This document shows, in pieces, positions 5,758 through 40,854 of a DNA stretch of 45,705 bases. Both the position numbers and the translations under genes were made by a program. Below the pieces are notes generated by a model. That model was not told the DNA's origin and ran no database searches. It saw nothing but the letters and a program-made list of their open reading frames with translations. The DNA lies in assembly GCA_029932195.1 (NCBI GenBank), contig JAOZQN010000002.1, positions 1 to 45,705 of the forward strand, read 5' to 3'. This stretch comes from Bacteroidales bacterium (GTDB taxonomy: Bacteria > Bacteroidota > Bacteroidia > Bacteroidales > JAOZQN01). The stretch's first letter is position 1; each line of letters opens with the position of its first letter.

Positions 5758-6081
5758 ATGAATAATCTAAAAATAAATACATTAGAAACAGCAACAAAAG
5801 TTCCATTTAATTTAGATGGTAAAATAATGTTTGGTAATTCTAGTGTAGAAATAATACACCTGACCCTAAAACCCTCCGAAAAATTGGATAAACATACAAA
5901 TCCAGCAGACGCTGTCTTTTATGTTTTGTCGGGGAAAGGCATACTTTTTTATGATGACAAGAAGATCGAAGTTTCTGCTAATTCTTGTTTTGAAATAAAA
6001 AAAGAAATAAAAAGAGGTTGGGAAAATACAAATAACTCGGAGCTTAAACTTCTTGTAGTAAAACAATTAGTCGTTAGTTAA
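5758..6081 (+). CDS. cupin domain protein
   Basis: 107 aa. Size and beta-rich pattern (H.L....L..H..P.D.VFYVLSG.G) are typical of small single-domain cupins. The stop codon lies inside the left target-site duplication of the adjacent MITE. Confidence 0.55.
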   Translation: MNNLKINTLETATKVPFNLDGKIMFGNSSVEIIHLTLKPSEKLDKHTNPADAVFYVLSGKGILFYDDKKIEVSANSCFEIKKEIKRGWENTNNSELKLLVVKQLVVS

Positions 6082-6085
6082 AAGT

Positions 6086-6208
6086 GGCGTTTTTCGCAAG
6101 TGCCAATTTTGTCGTTACTTTTGAAATTTTAAAATACTCATTTACAAATGTAAACTTCAATTCTAAAATTTCAAAAAAGCCTTGAACTTAACACCCGTGA
6201 AAAATGCC
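6086..6208 (+). mobile_element. 123-bp MITE-like palindromic element, copy A (decayed terminal inverted repeats)
   Basis: 111/123 identical, without gaps, to the reverse complement of 17660..17782 (hand alignment). Flanked by a perfect 8-bp direct repeat TTAAAAGT (6078..6085 and 6209..6216). Confidence 0.8.
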
Positions 6209-6245
6209 TTAAAAGTTGATTAATTATATCAAAAACTATATTCTT

Positions 6246-6401
6246 GCGTCCACTCCGAAAAGCATCTTTTTGCCAAACTCGGCGTTGGATACTTATTTTA
6301 AAATACTCATTTACAATAAGTGCAATGAGACATGCTCATTGTATTTTTAAAATTTGTATCCGCCTTTATTTTGAAAAAAATAGACTTATCGGAACGGACT
6401 C
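6246..6401. mobile_element. 156-bp palindromic element related to the MITE family (shares the AAAATACTCATTTACA box)
   Basis: The left arm gcgtccactccgaaaagcatcttttt pairs imperfectly with the right arm ..tagacttatcggaacggactc. Flanked by the direct repeat ATTCTT (6240..6245 and 6402..6407). Confidence 0.55.
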
Positions 6402-6443
6402 ATTCTTTAATAATTTCGTAATTCTAAAAATAATTATTCTGAG

Positions 6444-6695
6444 ATGAAATACATTGGAAAAATAAATATAATGCCACTAAAAGCATTATTAGACCCACAA
6501 GGGAAAGCAGTAAATCAAAACATGGAGAACATTGGTTTTAAGACAGTTTCAGATGTTAGAATAGGCAAACATATAGAAATAAAACTTGAAGCAGATGACA
6601 AAAAACATGCAGAAGAATTAGTAAATGAGGCTTGTAAGAAAATATTGTCAAATGTAGTAATGGAAAGTTACGAATTTACAATAGAAGAAATTTAA
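6444..6695 (+). CDS. purS: phosphoribosylformylglycinamidine synthase subunit PurS
   Basis: 83 aa. LDPQGKAV...GF..V.DVRIGK.IEI and the C-terminal SN.VMESYEF match the PurS family. Confidence 0.8.
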   Translation: MKYIGKINIMPLKALLDPQGKAVNQNMENIGFKTVSDVRIGKHIEIKLEADDKKHAEELVNEACKKILSNVVMESYEFTIEEI

Positions 6696-16217: not shown

Positions 16218-17660
16218 ATGTCATATAAAAACAAAACAGTTTTTGCATTAAAATGGGTTTCTGGAATGCAGGCTTATATTTTTTTAAGCAGGTTTATTAT
16301 AAATCTTATTCTTGCAAAATTATTGCTACCAGAAGATTTTGGACTTGTGGCAATTGTGGTTATTATTACCGAAGTGCTTACAGCCGTTGCCGATTTAGGA
16401 TTTAATGCTGCAATCATTCAAAAAAAAGAAATTTCAAAAGGCGACATCAACACCGCTTTTTTGTTAAATACTGTGCTTTCGCTGTTTTTAACAATAGCAG
16501 TATTCTTTTCAGCTAGCTTAATTTCAGGATTTTATAACGACATTAGGTTAGAACCATTAATTCAATTATTGTCAATAATATTATTTGTTAGAGCCATAAC
16601 TTCGGTGCAAATAGCAATAGCAGACAGAAATTTAAACTTCAAAAAAGTAGTTTTAATCACAGGAATTGCAATAACGGTGAGTTCTATTGTCAAAGTTGTG
16701 TTAGCATTTTTAGATTTTGAAGCTAAAAGTATTGTGATTGGAGAAATAGTAAACCATTCAATAATTTCTATATTATTCTGGATAACAACAACTTGGAAAC
16801 CATCTTTAAAATTTGTAAATAAAGACAGTTTTAAAAAATTATTTTCATTTGGCTCAAAAATAATGCTAACAAACACTCTTAGTTTGATAAGTCAAAAAAT
16901 TGATATACTGTTAATTGGAAAACTCGTATCAGCATCTCTTGTAGGCATCTATTCTTTTTCATTTATGCTTTCTACTGTTTTAGCGGCTTTTATTAATGCA
17001 ATTGTCCGGCGAGTAATTTTCCCAAGTTTTTCAAGAATACAAGAAAATGATAAAAATATCCAAACCTTATATTTAGATGCTGTTAAATTTATTTCCATAA
17101 TTAGTGTGCCTGCTTCGGTAGGATTATTTTTTATTGCTCCCGAATTTGTGAAATTATTTCTCAAAACAGAATGGAACGAGGCAGTTATTATTATTCAAAT
17201 TTTAAGTATTTTTGGAATATCAAACTCATTGGGAGGTGTGCTTTGGGGACAAGTATTAAAAGCTAAAGGACGACCAGCTATGGTGCTGATAATGACAATA
17301 ATACGATTGATTTCTTTAACTATTTTTATCTTTATTGGCTCAAATTGGGGCATAATTGGAATTGCCACTTCTGTTGCAATTTATGGTTGGATTTTCAGAT
17401 TTGTTTACCAACACATAATAAATAAAATAATAAAAATATCAATGTTAGACTATCTTAAAGCTCTAAAAAACACTACATTAGCCTCAATAACAATGGCAAC
17501 AGTTTTGTTTTTTATTAGACTTTTGAATAATTCTATTTTTATTAATGATATTTTTCTTTTTGTAATAATTATTGTTGCAGGAATTTTAAGTTATGGTTTT
17601 ATACATTGGACTTTTTTTAAATCTGACATAAAAAAAATAATTTCTACAATAAAAAAATAG
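16218..17660 (+). CDS. wzx: Wzx-type oligosaccharide flippase (polysaccharide biosynthesis protein, MOP superfamily)
   Basis: 480 aa with ~12-14 TM helices; N-terminal pattern W......Q...F....IL.R.L.P.DFG is typical of Wzx. The last base of the TAG stop codon is the first base of MITE copy B. Confidence 0.8.
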   Translation: MSYKNKTVFALKWVSGMQAYIFLSRFIINLILAKLLLPEDFGLVAIVVIITEVLTAVADLGFNAAIIQKKEISKGDINTAFLLNTVLSLFLTIAVFFSASLISGFYNDIRLEPLIQLLSIILFVRAITSVQIAIADRNLNFKKVVLITGIAITVSSIVKVVLAFLDFEAKSIVIGEIVNHSIISILFWITTTWKPSLKFVNKDSFKKLFSFGSKIMLTNTLSLISQKIDILLIGKLVSASLVGIYSFSFMLSTVLAAFINAIVRRVIFPSFSRIQENDKNIQTLYLDAVKFISIISVPASVGLFFIAPEFVKLFLKTEWNEAVIIIQILSIFGISNSLGGVLWGQVLKAKGRPAMVLIMTIIRLISLTIFIFIGSNWGIIGIATSVAIYGWIFRFVYQHIINKIIKISMLDYLKALKNTTLASITMATVLFFIRLLNNSIFINDIFLFVIIIVAGILSYGFIHWTFFKSDIKKIISTIKK

Positions 17661-17782
17661 GCGTTTTTCACGGGTGCCAATTTCAAGGCTTTTTTGTAAT
17701 TTTAGAATTGAAGTTTACCCTTGTAAATGAGCATTTTAAAATTTCAAAAGTAACGCCGAAATTGGCACTCGTGAAAAACGCC
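17660..17782 (-). mobile_element. 123-bp MITE-like element, copy B (near-perfect 24-bp terminal inverted repeats)
   Basis: TIRs ggcgtttttcacgggtgccaattt / aaattggcactcgtgaaaaacgcc match at 23/24 positions. Perfect 8-bp direct repeat AAAAAATA at 17652..17659 and 17783..17790. Inverted relative to copy A. Confidence 0.8.
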
Positions 17783-17806
17783 AAAAAATAAAATGATTTA
17801 TTTATA

Positions 17807-19144
17807 ATGCAAGTTTTTATCCCAAACAACTTTCTCCCAGAAAGAAAATATATAATTGAGATTTTAATTCATAATTTTCTTGGATTAAAATATGAGATAA
17901 GTTTTCATAACAAAAAATCGTATGTTTTTTTATTAGAAAATAAAAATAAATTAGTTTTTAAAGATGCTTTTTTTTCTAATTTTGAAGAAAGAAACGGTTA
18001 TTTATCTGGAAATAATTTGCCTGAAAAAGTAAAATTTTCGGAAAATAAATTTACATTAGAAAATGATATTCCAATTATTTTTGGCAACAAAAAAACAGAT
18101 ATTTCTGATACCGAAATAATTTGTGAAAATGATATTTTTGCCAGTTCATTTTTTATGCTAACTCGTTGGGAGGAACTGGTTATTAAAGATAAAGATAACC
18201 ATAATAGATTTCCAGAAGAACTATCTTTTTCTATAAAAAATAAAATCCATTTCCGACCAATTGTAAACGAATACGTAGAAATGCTTTGGAATATGCTCAA
18301 ATTTTTAGGCATATCTCAAAAAAGGAAGGAGAAGAAATATGAAGCCATTATTACTCACGATATTGACTTTATAAAAAGATATGATAAATTTTCAAAATTA
18401 ATAAAAGCAATTGGTGGAGATATTCTTTTAAGAAAAAATCCTTTTTTGATACCAAAAACTAAAAAAAATTATATAGATATAAAAAAAGGAAAAGAGAATG
18501 ATTTATACGATACTTTTGATTATTTGATGGATATTTCGGAAAAAAATAAAATAAAATCTCGCTTTTATTTTATTCCTGGAATGCTTGGAGAAAAAGATGT
18601 TAGATATAATATTACCAATAATTTTGTATCAGAAATTACAAAAAAAATATTAGACAGGGGACATATTGTGGGTTTGCATGGAACTTACGATAGTTATAAT
18701 TTACCCGAAAAATTTACGACTGAATTAGAGCGATTAAAAAAAATAACACCCGAAATAACAGAAGGTAGGCAACACTATTTAAGATTTGAAAATCCTACAA
18801 CTTGGCAAATTTGGGAGCAAAACAACTTACTATACGACAGCACAATAGGGTATTCAAAAGATGGGGGGTTTAGAGCAGGAATTTGCTACGAATATCCAAT
18901 TTTTGATCTAATTGAACGAAAACGATTAAACTTAATAGAACGTCCATTAATTGTTATGGAAGGAGCAATAAAATCATCTTATCCAGAACCAAAACTTTTT
19001 TATGATAAAATAATTGAATTAAAGAATATTGTAAAAAAATATAATGGTAAATTTGTCTTCCTTTGGCACAATAGTAATTTTAATACAGAGGAATGGCTTA
19101 CTTATAAAAAAAAATATTCACAAATAATTGCAGAAATAGTATGA
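17807..19144 (+). CDS. polysaccharide deacetylase-like (NodB-fold-like) protein with an uncharacterised N-terminal domain
   Basis: 445 aa. ITHDIDF and GLHGTYDSY motifs resemble divergent carbohydrate-esterase/deacetylase family members found in capsule loci. The assignment is tentative. Confidence 0.4.
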   Translation: MQVFIPNNFLPERKYIIEILIHNFLGLKYEISFHNKKSYVFLLENKNKLVFKDAFFSNFEERNGYLSGNNLPEKVKFSENKFTLENDIPIIFGNKKTDISDTEIICENDIFASSFFMLTRWEELVIKDKDNHNRFPEELSFSIKNKIHFRPIVNEYVEMLWNMLKFLGISQKRKEKKYEAIITHDIDFIKRYDKFSKLIKAIGGDILLRKNPFLIPKTKKNYIDIKKGKENDLYDTFDYLMDISEKNKIKSRFYFIPGMLGEKDVRYNITNNFVSEITKKILDRGHIVGLHGTYDSYNLPEKFTTELERLKKITPEITEGRQHYLRFENPTTWQIWEQNNLLYDSTIGYSKDGGFRAGICYEYPIFDLIERKRLNLIERPLIVMEGAIKSSYPEPKLFYDKIIELKNIVKKYNGKFVFLWHNSNFNTEEWLTYKKKYSQIIAEIV

Positions 19145-20349
19145 TCGTTTTTATTTATATTTTATTTCTATATTCTGGGCTGTTAAAATCAGTATTTTTA
19201 TTCTACAACATAGAATTACCTATTGATATTACTCTTATAACAGCTTGTTTATTAGTTATTTCCTTTTTTATTGATGTTTGGAAAAATAATTTTAAAGTTA
19301 AATTGAATAAAACAACTTTATTTGTTATTAGCTCAATATTGTTATTCTTTTTTTGGATTTTATTTACATTAATATATAGTCCTTCTGAAAAATATAGTTT
19401 TATTAAATCATTTTATTTTACTACTAATATTTTAACACTATTTTTCCCTTTATTAATTAGTAATTTTAATGTTAAAAAATTTATTAAATTTAGTCTTTTT
19501 TCTTCTCTATCCATTGCCATTTGGTATTTTTGGGTAGATTTTAATTCCAGTTCTTATATTTATAAATCTATTCAATATCAAATATATAGCTCACTTTATT
19601 TAACTATTTCAGGAGTATTAGGTGTAAATTTTCTAATTTTATTAACCACTAAATCTATTCTTTTTAACAAAAAAATATATGATACTATTTTAATTATTAT
19701 TACCCTATCTTTTATGTTGTTGATAAGAGGTAGAGGTCCTTTGTTGTTTGCAATTATTATTGCATTTATCTATTTTTCATATAAATTATTATCAGCAAAA
19801 AAAATTAATCTGAAAATTAATCTGAACAGAGTTATTTTTGCACTGTTTTTAATTGTTGGCTTCTCTATAATTATAACTATCTTATTATTACAGTTTAATG
19901 AACAAATATTAGCAATGCTAAATAAAACATTTTACAGATTTGCTGTTATTTTTTCAGGACTAGGAACTAGTGACATGGGAAACTCTGTAAATACAAGGGT
20001 GGATCATATTTATTTTTCCAAAGAATTGATATTAGACAATTTTACTAATTTTATTGGAGGCTATGGTATAGGGAGTTATGGAATATTATATTTAGGTATA
20101 GACCAAAGAACTTATCCACATAATATTATTTTAGAAATAATGGTAGAATTAGGAATAATTGGTTTAATATTATTTAGTATATACCTGTTTTTTAACCTTT
20201 TTTATCGGAAACAAAAAAACCAATATATTTCATCTTTTGTAATATTTTATTTAATCTTAAATATGTTAAAATCAAGTTCTTTGGTTGATTTAAGAATGTA
20301 TTTTGCTATATTTGCAATGTTCTTAATTATTAATACTAAGGCAAATTAA
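19141..20349 (+). CDS. O-antigen polymerase (Wzy)-like membrane protein
   Basis: 402 aa, ~10 TM helices, low-complexity hydrophobic sequence. The periplasmic-loop motif R..H.....E......GYGIGSY......YPHN..LE is typical of Wzy/O-antigen ligase proteins. Its ATGA overlaps the upstream gene. Confidence 0.6.
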   Translation: MIVFIYILFLYSGLLKSVFLFYNIELPIDITLITACLLVISFFIDVWKNNFKVKLNKTTLFVISSILLFFFWILFTLIYSPSEKYSFIKSFYFTTNILTLFFPLLISNFNVKKFIKFSLFSSLSIAIWYFWVDFNSSSYIYKSIQYQIYSSLYLTISGVLGVNFLILLTTKSILFNKKIYDTILIIITLSFMLLIRGRGPLLFAIIIAFIYFSYKLLSAKKINLKINLNRVIFALFLIVGFSIIITILLLQFNEQILAMLNKTFYRFAVIFSGLGTSDMGNSVNTRVDHIYFSKELILDNFTNFIGGYGIGSYGILYLGIDQRTYPHNIILEIMVELGIIGLILFSIYLFFNLFYRKQKNQYISSFVIFYLILNMLKSSSLVDLRMYFAIFAMFLIINTKAN

Positions 20350-20490
20350 AACTAATAATTAGCCATTTAAACTTGTTCTTTTTCCATTTAACTGCTTCAA
20401 AAAAAGATTAAATATTCCCGATATTCTCATATTCTTTTGAATTGTTAAAGAAAAAAATAACTTCGTTTAAATTGGCTAATTATTAATTTT
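20348..20490. repeat. 143-bp palindromic intergenic element
   Basis: Arms aaaactaataattagccatttaaac (20348..20372) and gtttaaattggctaattattaatttt (20465..20490) are complementary apart from one mismatch and one indel. The interior is also partly self-complementary. Confidence 0.7.
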
Positions 20491-20516
20491 AGTTTGCCTA
20501 AAAAAACATCTTATTT

Positions 20517-31619: not shown

Positions 31620-31662
31620 AAACTAATAAACAACTAAACTAATAAACTAATAAACCAACATA

Positions 31663-33714
31663 ATGCCAGAAAAAGAAAAAAAACAACTCGCAAAACCTTC
31701 TGAAAATAAAAAAACAGAAAAAAAACGACCAAAACGTAAAAAAAATAGCAATTACAATATATTTTGGATATACGGAATTATCATTCTCGGAATTATAGGA
31801 CTGCAATTTTGGGATTTTGGAGGAAAACCAGAAGACATCTATTGGAACGACCTCAGCCAAAAAATCAAAAATAAAGAAATTCTAAAAATTACGGTTGTAA
31901 ACAAAGAAAAAGCAGAAATAGTTTTAAAACCAGAAGTTTTTAGAGATACTGCATACAAAAAACTTGTAGAAAAAAAGATAACTGAAAAAGGACCTCATTT
32001 TATATTTCAAATATCATCGCCAGAAGTATTTCACGAGCAACTTCAGAAAATACAAGAAGACTTGCCCGTAAGTGAAAAGATTTTTTATGCCAGCGAAAGC
32101 CGTAAAGATATTATGGGCGAGGCACTTGGATGGATAATTCCTATCGGGATTCTCGTTTTAATATGGGTTCTTATTTTTAGAAAAATGGGAGGCTCTGGAG
32201 GAATGGGTGGCGGAATTTTTAATATGGGACGCTCAAAAGCCAAAATATTTGACGACAATACTACCACAAAAAGCACATTCAAAGACGTTGCAGGACTTGA
32301 AGAAGCAAAACAAGAAATTACCGAAATTGTAGATTTTCTTAAAAATTCGGAAAAATACACAAAACTTGGTGGAAAAATTCCAAAAGGAGCATTGCTCGTA
32401 GGACCTCCGGGAACAGGTAAAACATTGCTTGCCAAAGCTGTTGCAGGCGAAGCAGAAGTGCCATTTTTCTCAATGTCGGGTTCAGATTTTGTAGAAATGT
32501 TTGTTGGTGTGGGAGCTTCACGGGTGAGAGATTTATTTGCACAAGCAAAAGCACAAGCCCCTTGCATAATTTTTATCGACGAAATTGATGCAATAGGACG
32601 TTCAAGAGGGTCTAAAAACAGTTTCAACTCAAACGACGAAAGAGAAAGCACTCTTAATCAACTCCTTACAGAGATGGACGGTTTTGAAACCAATACAGGA
32701 GTAATTATTATTGCTGCAACAAATAGAGCCGAAATTTTAGACACAGCACTCCTTCGTGCTGGTCGTTTTGACCGTCAAATTGTGCTTGACTTGCCAGATT
32801 TGAACGAAAGAGAAGAGATTTTTGAAGTTCATTTGAAACCTATTAAATCAAGTGAAAAACTCAATAAAAGATCGCTTGCACGACAAACTCCTGGATTTTC
32901 GGGAGCAGATATTGCAAACGTATGTAACGAGGCTGCACTTATAGCTGCTCGTAAAGGCAAAGAAGTTGTTGAAGGTCAGGATTTTATAGATGCTATTGAT
33001 AGAATTGTTGGTGGTTTGGAAAAAAAGAAAAAAATTATTACTCCAGAAGAGCGAAAAACAATTGCTTATCACGAAGCGGGACACGCAACTGTAAGTTGGC
33101 TTTTGGAAAATTCGCAACCGTTAATAAAAGTTACAATTGTTCCTCGTGGCAAGGCATTGGGAGCTGCATGGTATTTGCCAGAAGAACGACAACTGACAAC
33201 CGAAGAACAATTTTTAGATGAAATTTGTGCAACTCTCGGTGGACGTGCAGCAGAAGAAGTTGTTTTTAATAAAATATCATCTGGTGCGTTAAACGACTTA
33301 GAACGAGTTACTAAACAAGCATATTCTATGGTCTCATTTCTTGGAATGAGTAAAGAAGTAGGAAATCTAAGTTTCTATGATTCAAGTGGTCAAGAATTTC
33401 AGTTTAGCAAGCCATATAGCGAAAAAACAGCTGAACTTATAGACTCAGAGGTCAGAAAAATAATTGAAAAAGAATATATTAGAGCTAAAAAAACTCTTAC
33501 AAATAACATGGCTAAATTTACAGAACTCGCTGAAAGCCTACAACAAAAAGAAGTTATTTTTACCGACGATGTAGAAGAAATACTAGGAAAAAGAACTTTT
33601 AAAAATCCACATACCGAGGACGCTATAAATGGACTAAAAAAAGATAGAGAAAACATAAGAAAAGAGAATGAGAACAAACCTAAAAATAATAAAGAAAAAC
33701 CGGAAATTAGATGA
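31663..33714 (+). CDS. ftsH: ATP-dependent zinc metalloprotease FtsH
   Basis: Two N-terminal TM segments, AAA+ Walker A GPPGTGKT, Walker [12 protein letters not shown] region, and the zinc motif HEAGHA. Confidence 0.95.
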
Positions 33715-39443: not shown

Positions 39444-39596
39444 AATAATTGGGCTACCCACGTAAAGTTGAACAGCAATTGCACTCGTCAGGTGTTTTTC
39501 ACCTGACGCTTTATAGGCGGTCAGGTGAAAAACACCTGACCGAGGCAATATGTTGAAATTTAGCTTTGTCCAACTTTACGTGGGTAGCCAATAATT
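39444..39596. mobile_element. 139-bp nested palindromic MITE-like element flanked by the 7-bp direct repeat AATAATT
   Basis: Terminal arms gggctacccacgtaaagttg.aca / tgt.caactttacgtgggtagcc. Two inner perfect hairpins gtcaggtgTTTTTcacctgac (39487..39507) and gtcaggtgAAAAAcacctgac (39520..39540). AATAATT directly abuts both ends. Confidence 0.65.
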
Positions 39597-39739
39597 GGTT
39601 TACACTTAATTATCAGAATATTATTTTTTTATTGTTAATAAACTTTTGTCATACTACTTATATTGGTTTATTGATACTTACAGCAAATAAACCAATAAAC
39701 TATTAAACCAATTTACCAATAAACTAATACACCAACCCA

Positions 39740-40510
39740 ATGGAATACAAAATTTTAAAATTAGCGATAGAAAAAAATGTTGCAACAGTAACAATCAGTC
39801 GCCCCAAAGCGATGAATGCACTTAATACTGCTTTTTTTTCGGAAATGGATAGTATGCTTAACGAACTTAGTTCAAATAAAAATGTTAGAGCATTAATAAT
39901 TACAGGTGAAGGTAAAGCATTTGTAGCAGGAGCAGATATTGCAGAAATGTCGGATATGAACTCCGAGCAAGGAACGGAATTTTCTAAAATAGGACAAAAT
40001 GTTTTTGATAAAATAGAAGCAATGCCATTTCCGACAATTGCAGCAATAAATGGTTTCGCACTTGGCGGAGGCTTAGAACTCACACTTGCCTGCGATATTC
40101 GTATTGCAAGCACAAAAGCACTCATGGGACAGCCAGAAGTGAATCTCGGACTTATTCCAGGATATGCAGGAACTCAACGACTTGCACGCCTCGTTGGAAT
40201 GGGAGACGCTCTATATCTCCTCTACACCGCAGACATGATTTCGGCAGAAGAAGCTCTACGGATAAAACTTGTGCAAAAAGTCACCGAACCTGAAGCACTT
40301 TTGGAAACAGCAAATAAAATTGCTAAAAAAATAAGCCAGAAAGGACAAAATGCTATCAAACAAGTAAAAATAGTAACAAGAAGCGGAATAAATATGAACT
40401 TTAATGACGGACAAAATTTGGAAGCAAAAGTTTTCGGTTCACTATTTGACACACAAGAAACAAAAGAAGGCATGAATGCTTTTTTGGAAAAAAGAAGACC
40501 AAAATGGTAA
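39740..40510 (+). CDS. enoyl-CoA hydratase (crotonase family)
   Basis: ITGEGKAFVAGADI and AAINGFALGGGLELTLACDIRIAS are crotonase signatures. At 256 aa it is typical of short-chain enoyl-CoA hydratases. Confidence 0.9.
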   Translation: MEYKILKLAIEKNVATVTISRPKAMNALNTAFFSEMDSMLNELSSNKNVRALIITGEGKAFVAGADIAEMSDMNSEQGTEFSKIGQNVFDKIEAMPFPTIAAINGFALGGGLELTLACDIRIASTKALMGQPEVNLGLIPGYAGTQRLARLVGMGDALYLLYTADMISAEEALRIKLVQKVTEPEALLETANKIAKKISQKGQNAIKQVKIVTRSGINMNFNDGQNLEAKVFGSLFDTQETKEGMNAFLEKRRPKW

Positions 40511-40649
40511 AATAATTTGAGTGTGTAATATTTGGGGGCTTTTTAGCTCTTGGAAGTTGGCTTTTGGCTTCGCAAAGCGACAAAAAACTAAACCAATAGC
40601 CAATACCTAAAAGCCAATAGCTCTCAATATGTTACACACTCAAATAATT
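40511..40649. repeat. 139-bp palindromic intergenic element
   Basis: Arms aataatttgagtgtgtaatat (40511..40531) and atatgttacacactcaaataatt (40627..40649) are complementary with minor mismatches. A central tcgcaaagcga hairpin is present. Starts immediately after the stop codon. Confidence 0.7.
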
Positions 40650-40673
40650 TTTAGTCTGTAGTTGCAACTACAT

Positions 40674-40792
40674 GGCACTCCTAAAAACCCAAAACTCTGC
40701 GTTATACAAAATTATTAAAACACTCATTTACAGGAGTAAACTCAAATTTTAAGAATTTTGAAAGCCTTAATTTTTGAGTTTTTAGGAATGCC
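40674..40792 (+). repeat. 119-bp palindromic element sharing the MITE A/B core with a flipped terminal stem
   Basis: The core ttaaaacactcatttacaggagtaaactcaaatt...gaaagcctta parallels copy A (ttaaaatactcatttacaaatgtaaacttcaatt...aaaagccttg). Terminal arms ggcactcctaaaaac / gtttttaggaatgcc are self-complementary. Confidence 0.65.
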
Positions 40793-40854
40793 CTACAGAA
40801 AATAGCCAACTTTGTAGGAGTCCCCAGTAGATGCACACAATTATAACTAAAAAT

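What the first reader, a model, noticed from the sequence alone, without database searches (positions are those of the whole stretch)
6078..6216. 123-bp MITE with perfect 8-bp target-site duplications, present in two inverted copies 11.5 kb apart
Seen: 6086..6208 and the reverse complement of 17660..17782 are both exactly 123 bp. They match at 111/123 positions without gaps (hand alignment). Copy B has 24-bp terminal inverted repeats with one mismatch (ggcgtttttcacgggtgccaattt / aaattggcactcgtgaaaaacgcc). The arms of copy A are decayed by about 7 mismatches, so it is probably older. Copy A is flanked by TTAAAAGT at 6078..6085 and 6209..6216, and the cupin stop codon TAA lies inside the left copy. 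Copy B is flanked by AAAAAATA at 17652..17659 and 17783..17790. TIRs, fixed-length direct duplications and the absence of coding capacity are the hallmarks of non-autonomous transposable elements. No transposase is present in the window. The two copies are inverted and bracket purS through wzx, so they are also a potential substrate for inversion by homologous recombination.
Basis: seen in the sequence. Interest (0 to 1): 0.6.

Follow-up and report, generated by a model that had tools for sequence, protein, structure and literature searches.

The report
High-copy 123-bp MITE, 8-bp duplications
The two 123-bp repeats are genuine copies of a small non-coding jumping element (a MITE) present about a hundred times in this uncultured Bacteroidales genome; this is an ordinary kind of mobile DNA, except that its central hairpin is shared with other MITE families that have different ends.

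Summary
6086-6208 (+) and 17660-17782 (-) are 123-bp copies that match at 111/123 positions, and each has its own perfect 8-bp flanking duplication.

The MITE reading is supported.
- The draft genome (6.73 Mb, 944 contigs) holds 85 full-length copies and 233 termini.
- 52 of 83 testable copies have a perfect 8-bp duplication, against 0.2% in shuffled controls. None extends to 9 bp.
- Insertions share a target motif, are almost always intergenic, and are sometimes nested.
- 18 copies have a twin that is at least 99% identical.
- The only congener has about 425 termini. Its cupin-purS junction is a 24-bp spacer with no element.

No autonomous partner was found. The ISL3, IS1595, IS1-like and ISAs1-like elements present have other ends.

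One result goes beyond the finding. The inner ~80 bp is a hairpin "chassis" shared with two other MITE families in this genome, which have different ends and make 4-bp and 6-bp duplications. A model of that hairpin hits 42 of 151 sampled Bacteroidales genomes. The scan had already noted copy B and the shared core on this same window.

Verdict: a new member of a known kind, of moderate interest.

The parts
6078..6085 (.). Left target-site duplication of copy A (TTAAAAGT). It contains the cupin stop codon TAA at 6079-6081.
6086..6208 (+). Family-1 MITE copy A, 123 bp. It is the older copy: arms mismatch at 7/24 positions, it is 92.7% identical to the family consensus, and its nearest copy is 95% identical.
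   Evidence: core hairpin model R1 hit at 6107-6192
6209..6216 (.). Right target-site duplication of copy A (TTAAAAGT).
17652..17659 (.). Left (+ strand) target-site duplication of copy B (AAAAAATA), overlapping the last codons of the flippase gene.
17660..17782 (-). Family-1 MITE copy B, 123 bp. It belongs to a young subfamily: 99.2% identical to copies on contigs C118 and C106, with a 24/25 terminal inverted repeat. As RNA it folds into a near-perfect hairpin (-51 to -60 kcal/mol, z about -9 to -10).
17783..17790 (.). Right target-site duplication of copy B (AAAAAATA).
6246..6401 (+). Family-3 MITE (156 bp; ends GCGTCCACTCCGA...CGGAACGGACTC) with a perfect 6-bp duplication ATTCTT at 6240-6245 and 6402-6407. 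It shares the central hairpin core with copies A and B and lies 30 bp from copy A's right duplication.
40673..40793 (+). Family-2 MITE (121 bp; ends TGGCACTCCTAAAAAC...GTTTTTAGGAATGCCC) with a 4-bp duplication TACA on both sides. It has the same central hairpin core.

Best explanation
[quoted passage not shown] The element is 123 bp and non-coding. It has 21-25-bp terminal inverted repeats (GGCGTTTTTCACGAGTGYCAA) and is nearly palindromic over its whole length. It is most likely moved in trans by a DDE-type transposase that binds the two ends and makes cuts staggered by 8 bp in the target. Repair of those cuts produces the 8-bp direct duplication. Insertion prefers AT-rich intergenic sites fitting T-N2-[N W W W W T T N]-N2-A. 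Shown here: copy number, exact duplication length, the target motif, intergenic bias, nested insertions, near-identical young copies, presence in only one genus among those sampled, and an orthologous junction without the element in the congener. Inferred: the type of enzyme, and that transposition still occurs. The encoding element was not found in either fragmented assembly.
For: There are 85 full-length copies on 75 contigs and 409 related places, and 233 termini within 2 mismatches. Perfect 8-bp duplications flank 52/83 copies and 64/83 match at 7 or more of 8; the shuffled control gives 0.2%, and none extends to 9 bp. The boundary scan peaks at exactly 8 bp. The target logo has T at -3 (33/52) and A at +3 (41/52). 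Only 1/83 copies lies inside a long ORF, against 70% of random sites. Nested insertions occur: family 1 inside family 1 at C646, and family 2 inside family 1 at C117. Eighteen copies have a twin at least 99% identical. The congener has 425 termini, and 25/53 of its copies examined have perfect 8-bp duplications, 36/53 at 7 or more of 8. The congener's cupin-purS junction is 24 bp with no element. Among 401 genomes of the order, the terminus occurs as a repeat only in these two; four other single hits lie in coding sequence. There is no Rfam match.
Against: No autonomous element carrying these ends was found. Searches covered this genome, about 380 kb of the congener, viral contigs and JGI metagenome contigs. 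The transposases that are present have other ends: ISL3 GGCTCACTTGAAA, IS1595 GGGTATAAAGCATTC, an IS1-like element GGTAGTCTATGC, and an ISAs1-like element CAGGGTTTGTTC. No strain-level empty site with identical flanks was available. The congener is only 71-80% identical in the flanking genes, so its locus shows absence of the element, not a precise empty site.
Confidence: 0.92

Rival explanations
1. The element spreads by transposition, but what persists is a host-useful or element-useful structured hairpin (for example a bidirectional terminator or insulator, an RNA, or a protein-binding cruciform). On this view the central core is under selection. This reading adds to the MITE reading and does not exclude it.
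For: The central hairpin (TTTTAAAAT-GCTCA-TTTAC-loop-GTAAA-CTCCGC-TTTTAAAA) is shared by three families in this genome with different ends and different duplication lengths. It recurs with yet other outer arms in 22 metagenome contigs and in 42/151 sampled genomes of the order. Six outer-stem pairs change on both sides while the internal loop stays fixed. Copies lie closer to gene 3' ends (median 52 bp) than to 5' ends (131 bp).
Against: There is no orientation bias relative to neighbouring genes: 20 vs 26 for family 1 and 74 vs 80 for all core elements. There is no excess between convergent genes. Within family 1, conservation is flat across ends, stems and core, so there is no sign of selection on inserted copies. 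Palindromes can stay symmetrical through their origin or through arm-to-arm correction, without any function. No transcript data could be examined.
Confidence: 0.3
2. The two inverted copies are the ends of an 11.7-kb composite transposon carrying purS through the flippase gene, which arrived as one unit.
For: Two inverted copies bracket the segment. Two MITE ends could in principle be used together.
Against: Each copy has its own complete pair of 8-bp duplications. The sequences outside the pair (TTAAAAGT and AAAAAATA) differ, which a single composite insertion would not give. The copies are 10% diverged and belong to different subfamilies. The congener has cupin directly next to purS, so the left junction is ancestral gene order.
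Confidence: 0.02
3. These are REP/BIME-type palindromic units spread by a RAYT (IS200/IS605-like, HUH) enzyme, not by a DDE transposase.
For: They are whole-length palindromes, high in copy number and intergenic.
Against: There is a fixed 8-bp target duplication and a defined terminal inverted repeat in most copies. By established knowledge, REP elements and IS200/IS605 relatives make no target duplication. At 123 bp the element is well above the usual REP size.
Confidence: 0.01

Closest known systems
Bacterial MITEs derived from insertion sequences, e.g. MITEAba12 of Acinetobacter (PMC6382973) and those covered in the prokaryotic MITE review PMC10969869
   Same: Small, non-coding, with terminal inverted repeats and a fixed-length target duplication. 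Multi-copy, mostly intergenic, and dependent on a transposase supplied in trans.
   Different: No sequence relation. No parental insertion sequence could be named here. The inner part is shared with MITE families that have other ends.
   Same: Same genome. ISL3 elements also make 8-bp duplications (established knowledge of the family).
   Different: The ISL3 end here is GGCTCACTTGAAAWAGTTGAGGG, unrelated to GGCGTTTTTCACGAGTGCCAA. It is therefore a different family and probably uses a different enzyme.
MITECca01 of the Cardinium endosymbiont (Bacteroidota), an IS982-derived MITE of about 240 bp (PMC9769881)
   Same: A MITE in a repeat-rich Bacteroidota genome.
   Different: That element's ends match a resident IS (ISCca4). 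Here no resident IS shares the ends.
Correia elements of Neisseria (own knowledge, not tested here)
   Same: About 100-150 bp, long inverted repeats that fold as hairpins, hundreds of intergenic copies, no known resident transposase.
   Different: Correia elements duplicate TA, not 8 bp. There is no sequence similarity.
Mosaic non-autonomous elements built from Tn3-derived TIMEs (PMC4133298)
   Same: A precedent for non-autonomous elements recombining into mosaics.
   Different: Here the mosaicism runs the other way: one inner module combined with at least three kinds of ends that give 8-, 4- and 6-bp duplications.

Membership tests
MITE (non-autonomous, IS-like DNA transposon) | Short, with no coding capacity | tested here: met
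   123 bp. The longest stop-free stretch is 34-41 codons, which is the element's own length. No Pfam-scale ORF is possible.
MITE (non-autonomous, IS-like DNA transposon) | Terminal inverted repeats | tested here: met
   24/25 in copy B. The consensus GGCGTTTTTCACGAGTGYCAA is present at both ends of 85 copies.
MITE (non-autonomous, IS-like DNA transposon) | Target-site duplication of one fixed length | tested here: met
   Exactly 8 bp: 52/83 perfect, none of 9 bp, control 0.2%. Repeated in the congener: 25/53 perfect.
MITE (non-autonomous, IS-like DNA transposon) | Many dispersed copies with signs of recent movement | tested here: met
   85 full-length copies on 75 contigs. 18 copies have a twin at least 99% identical. 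Nested insertions occur.
MITE (non-autonomous, IS-like DNA transposon) | Sites lacking the element in relatives | tested here: inconclusive
   The congener's cupin-purS junction is 24 bp and lacks the element. The flanks are too diverged for a base-exact empty site. Upstream of the ortholog of the 17807 gene the congener has a decayed ~50-bp family-1-like remnant.
MITE (non-autonomous, IS-like DNA transposon) | An autonomous insertion sequence with the same ends | tested here: inconclusive
   None found in either fragmented assembly, in viral contigs or in metagenome contigs. Repeats are badly assembled in both bins.
ISL3-derived MITE | Ends matching the resident ISL3 element | tested here: not met
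   The ISL3 end is GGCTCACTTGAAAWAGTTGAGGG, which differs from the family-1 ends.
IS1595-derived MITE | Ends matching resident IS1595-family elements | tested here: not met
   The congener's IS1595-like element has ends GGGTATAAAGCATTCAGCAATC. The copy on C263 shows no family-1 ends.
REP/BIME (RAYT-mobilised palindromic units) | No target duplication; short (20-40 nt) imperfect palindromes | tested here: not met
   An 8-bp duplication is present and the unit is 123 bp.
Any Rfam RNA family | Match to a curated covariance model | tested here: not met
   No hit at gathering score in the window. Only chance-level hits (E 0.09-0.8) in 5900-6500.

The most novel reading that the evidence does not exclude
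The 123-bp element is one 'shell' of a modular MITE superfamily. A conserved central hairpin of about 60-80 nt has fixed internal-loop sequences (GCTCA / CTCCGC) and a fixed TTTAC/GTAAA apical stem, while its outer stems covary. This hairpin is combined with interchangeable ends recognised by different transposases, giving 8-, 4- and 6-bp duplications in this one genome. It recurs with still other ends in about 28% of the sampled Bacteroidales genomes (roughly one genome per family). If the core is kept by selection, it would be a new functional module of bacterial MITEs. Possible roles are a transposition-promoting structure, a host-factor site, or an RNA.
Probability: 0.3. Interest if true: 0.65.

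Novelty: new member of a known kind. Interest (0 to 1): 0.38.

Why it matters
For this genome the family explains part of the assembly fragmentation: 21 contig ends stop inside a copy. It marks recent mobile-DNA activity, and it places long hairpins at the 3' ends of genes, including inside a surface-glycan gene cluster. More generally, large surveys report that MITEs are mostly genus-specific (PMC11602168). An inner module conserved across many Bacteroidales families while the ends are swapped would be an exception. It gives a concrete, testable question: what does the core do for the element or for the host?

Tried and rejected
**Autonomous partner**
- I listed all 287 termini (up to 4 mismatches) and examined every unpaired one and every pair 500-5000 bp apart. 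All were separate MITEs or solo ends next to ordinary genes.
- Pfam searches of this genome and the congener covered ISL3, IS1595, IS256, IS6/IS240, IS1 and IS4/IS5-type transposases. Every element found has different ends.
- High-coverage contigs of the congener that carry a terminus hold no transposase.
It returned only the congener plus one stray hit in an Algimonas bin that I did not inspect.
- Viral contigs and JGI metagenomes gave no match.
- Single hits in four other Bacteroidales genomes lie in coding sequence and are chance matches.

**Function of the hairpin**
- There is no orientation bias relative to genes.
- Conservation along the element is flat.
- There is no Rfam match.
- A literature search for the core strings found only unrelated primers.

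**Other readings**
- The composite-transposon and REP/BIME readings were rejected on the duplication pattern.

**Not possible**
I could not test insertion polymorphism, the inverted isomer or transcription.

Full report
**Observation**

Copy A (6086-6208, + strand) and the reverse complement of copy B (17660-17782) are each 123 bp and match at 111/123 positions without gaps. They are the top inverted pair in the window (I1).

Copy A is flanked by TTAAAAGT (6078-6085 and 6209-6216). Copy B is flanked by AAAAAATA (17652-17659 and 17783-17790). Copy B's arms match at 24/25 positions. Copy A's arms differ at 7 of 24.

Gene calls were confirmed with Pfam. The upstream ORF is a Cupin_2 protein whose TAA stop lies in the left duplication. 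The next gene is PurS. The 480-aa ORF ending at 17660 is a Polysacc_synt_3 flippase, and its TAG stop uses the first base of copy B.

**It is a repeat family, and the duplications are real**

The window is contig C882 of a 6.73-Mb, 944-contig, 29.7% GC bin. BLASTN of the 123-mer finds 409 distinct places. Of these, 85 are full-length copies at 81-100% identity, spread over 75 contigs. Within 2 mismatches there are 233 termini, and 21 contig ends stop inside a copy.

Of 83 copies with both flanks available:
- 52 have a perfect 8-bp direct repeat, and 64 match at 7 or more of 8 positions.
- Flanks paired at random are perfect in 0.2% of cases.
- No duplication extends to 9 bp, and a boundary scan peaks at exactly 8 bp.

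Reconstructed target sites share a motif: T three bases before the duplication (33/52), A three bases after it (41/52), and N-W-W-W-W-T-T-N inside it. This is what one enzyme with one target preference would produce.

Only 1 of 83 copies lies inside a long ORF, against 70% of random positions. Copies sit nearer to gene 3' ends (median 52 bp) than to 5' ends (131 bp), and show no orientation preference (20 vs 26).

Nested insertions exist. One family-1 copy sits inside another at C646, with a 7/8 duplication. A family-2 element sits inside a family-1 copy at C117, with a CTTT duplication.

Eighteen copies have a twin at least 99% identical. Copy B is 99.2% identical to copies on C118 and C106. 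Copy A's closest relative is 95% identical.

**Relatives**

The genus has one other species representative. Its record is titled "MAG: Bacteroidales bacterium isolate GMC8.concoct.158". It carries 425 termini. In the roughly 380 kb fetched from it, 53 paired copies were found, 43 of them exactly 123 bp. Of the 53, 25 have perfect 8-bp duplications and 36 match at 7 or more of 8.

Its copies are about 89-91% identical to copy B. Copies within the window's genome reach 99-100% identity to each other. This suggests separate bursts in each lineage.

In the congener, the cupin and purS genes are separated by 24 bp (...CAATTATAAATAACTAAATTTAATAAAACCATG...). There is no element and no pre-existing repeat. 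In the window the same junction is 362 bp and holds two MITEs.

Upstream of the ortholog of the gene at 17807, the congener has a different neighbouring gene and a decayed ~50-bp remnant that resembles the family-1 left end.

Among 401 genomes of the order, the terminus occurs as a repeat only in these two. Four single hits in other genomes lie in coding sequence and are chance matches. Viral contigs and JGI metagenome contigs hold no exact terminus.

**Mechanism**

Terminal inverted repeats, a fixed 8-bp duplication, a target motif, dispersed near-identical copies and nesting together are the signature of a non-autonomous DNA transposon. Such an element is moved in trans by a DDE-type transposase that makes 8-bp staggered cuts in the target. 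The enzyme type is inferred, because the enzyme itself was not found.

Each of the following was checked, and none revealed a transposase:
- every unpaired terminus;
- every pair of termini 0.5-5 kb apart;
- the high-coverage contigs of the congener.

The transposases that are present have other ends:
- ISL3 on C361: GGCTCACTTGAAAWAGTTGAGGG;
- IS1595-like elements: GGGTATAAAGCATTCAGCAATC;
- an IS1-like element: GGTAGTCTATGCTAAGCAGTG;
- an ISAs1-like element on C234: CAGGGTTTGTTCATAAAA;
- no IS256 or IS6 element was found.

Both bins break at repeats, so absence from the assemblies does not show absence from the cells. By established knowledge, the families that make 8-bp duplications and have GG-initial ends are ISL3, IS1595, IS256, IS1 and IS6. 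The evidence does not let me choose among them.

**Rival readings**

- *Composite transposon (purS to flippase).* This is excluded. Each copy has its own pair of duplications, and the outer flanks differ. The congener also keeps cupin next to purS.
- *REP/BIME-type elements.* These make no duplications, so this reading is excluded.
- *Inversion by recombination.* This remains only a possibility. The longest identical run between the copies is 23 bp. The assembled left junction matches the congener's gene order.

**What lies beyond the finding**

The inner ~80 bp of the element is not specific to this family. A search for the core AAAATRCTCATTTACA found 375 places in the genome, and only 105 of them have family-1 ends. 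Two other families carry the same core:

| Family | Ends | Length | Duplication |
|---|---|---|---|
| 1 (the finding) | GGCGTTTTTCACGAGTG... | 123 or 130 bp | 8 bp, 53/92 perfect |
| 2 | GGGCACTCCTAAAAAC... | 121 or 128 bp | 4 bp, 67/88 perfect |
| 3 | GAGTCCACTCCGA... | 142 or 156 bp | 6 bp, 62/111 perfect |

The window holds one copy of each of the other two. Family 3 is at 6246-6401 with duplication ATTCTT, 30 bp from copy A's right duplication. Family 2 is at 40673-40793 with duplication TACA.

Several observations point to exchange of modules between families:
- A 14-nt allele (GTGCCTAACGGCAT) between the end and the core occurs in both family 1 and family 2.
- A chimera with a family-1 left end and a family-3 right end exists on C32.
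- Family 2's left arm (GGCACTCCTAAAAAC) resembles family 1's right arm (GGCACTCGTGAAAAAC), as if the stem had been turned over. I have no mechanism for this.

The core is also widespread. The exact 20-mer TTTTAAAATRCTCATTTACA occurs in 57 metagenome contigs. In 22 of them it is followed by the partner GTAAAC (often GTAAACTCCGC...TTTTAAAA) or the conserved GCCTTGA motif. The 18 with the hairpin partner mostly lie inside palindromes with still other outer arms.

An alignment of 16 such elements gives a consensus hairpin with these features:
- an invariant apical stem (TTTAC/GTAAA);
- an invariant 7-nt internal loop on each side;
- an A/T stem;
- an outer stem in which 6 pairs change on both sides.

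A covariance model built from this alignment hits 42 of 151 sampled genomes of the order, roughly one genome per family.

The core is therefore more widely conserved than the ends, which is the reverse of the usual MITE pattern. I found no sign of a strand-specific host function:
- orientation relative to genes is balanced (74 vs 80);
- there is no excess between convergent genes;
- conservation is flat within family 1;
- there is no Rfam match.

Whether the core is selected, or is simply the inherited chassis of an old MITE lineage whose ends keep being replaced, remains open.

**Comparison with known elements, and verdict**

MITEs are common in bacteria and especially in Bacteroidota, and are reported to be mostly genus-specific (PMC11602168; review PMC10969869). 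Another Bacteroidota example derives from IS982 (PMC9769881). The 123-bp family fits this picture: it is a new, genus-restricted member of a known kind.

The shared, order-wide hairpin core is the only unusual aspect. The scan had already noted copy B's position (e1-3346684) and the shared core (e1-3346685) on this same window. I confirmed both here and quantified the shared core.

Noticed in passing
window 6246-6401 (duplications 6240-6245 and 6402-6407): A second, different MITE (family 3, 156 bp, ends GAGTCCACTCCGA-type, perfect 6-bp duplication ATTCTT) lies 30 bp from copy A's right duplication. The cupin-purS spacer therefore holds two independent insertions. The genome has 111 paired copies, 62 of them with perfect 6-bp duplications.
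   Followed up: yes
window 40673-40793: A third MITE family (family 2, 121 bp, ends GGGCACTCCTAAAAAC-type, 4-bp duplication TACA). The genome has 88 paired copies, 67 of them with perfect 4-bp duplications. It has the same central core as copies A and B.
   Followed up: yes
G000 genome-wide; 42 of 151 sampled genomes of the order; loci L104-L172: The central hairpin core (TTTTAAAAT-GCTCA-TTTAC-N4-GTAAA-CTCCGC-TTTTAAAA) is conserved across MITE-like palindromes that have many different outer arms, both in other Bacteroidales families and in metagenome contigs. It is more conserved than the ends.
   Followed up: partly
54 contig ends of G000, e.g. C361:1-50, C263:1-48, C640:1-60: Another very high-copy element ends ...CATGCCGTTTTTGTAATRTRTTCACAACCAGCTAATTACAACTCCGAAACTTCAG. 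It is always cut by a contig edge and its interior is not assembled. It is probably an insertion sequence and a main cause of the fragmented assembly.
   Followed up: no
G000 C832:6411-8777: A truncated family-1 arm abuts an ISL3-type end (GGCTCACATTGAAAAGTTGAGGG). It is followed by a 414-aa ATPase-like ORF and a 218-aa ORF, and then by a full family-1 copy. This may be an ISL3-bounded cargo unit resembling a defence gene pair.
   Followed up: no
G000 C32:2275-2600 and C858:119-210: A chimeric element with a family-1 left end, two copies of yet another ~68-bp dispersed repeat (CCTAAGCAAGACAAGCTGGAAAAGTTTTGAAG...; dozens of copies genome-wide), the core, and a family-3 right end. This shows that repeat modules are being shuffled.
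   Followed up: partly
L017 (G001 C115:4880-4960): Upstream of the ortholog of the gene at window 17807, the congener has a decayed ~50-bp remnant resembling the family-1 left end (AGCGTATTTCACAAATGCAAATTTTTGTGTTC...). This intergenic position was hit independently, or the insertion is old.
   Followed up: partly
L044 (G001, JAOZTW010000823.1:1762-1884): A family-1 copy appears to split a gene whose two halves (115 aa and 213 aa) look like a YhgA/Rpn-type PD-(D/E)XK protein. This was judged by eye and not checked with Pfam.
   Followed up: no
window 39478-39549, 40509-40651 and 20339-20499: Further inverted repeats in the window: 30-nt arms at 87% with a 12-nt loop; 62-nt arms at 73%; and 33-nt arms at 88% that are 95 nt apart. 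These may be additional small palindromic elements.
   Followed up: no
window 31620-31682 and 39681-39751: Short arrays with an 8-nt period (AAACTAAT / AAACCAAT units) just upstream of ATG codons at two places in the window.
   Followed up: no
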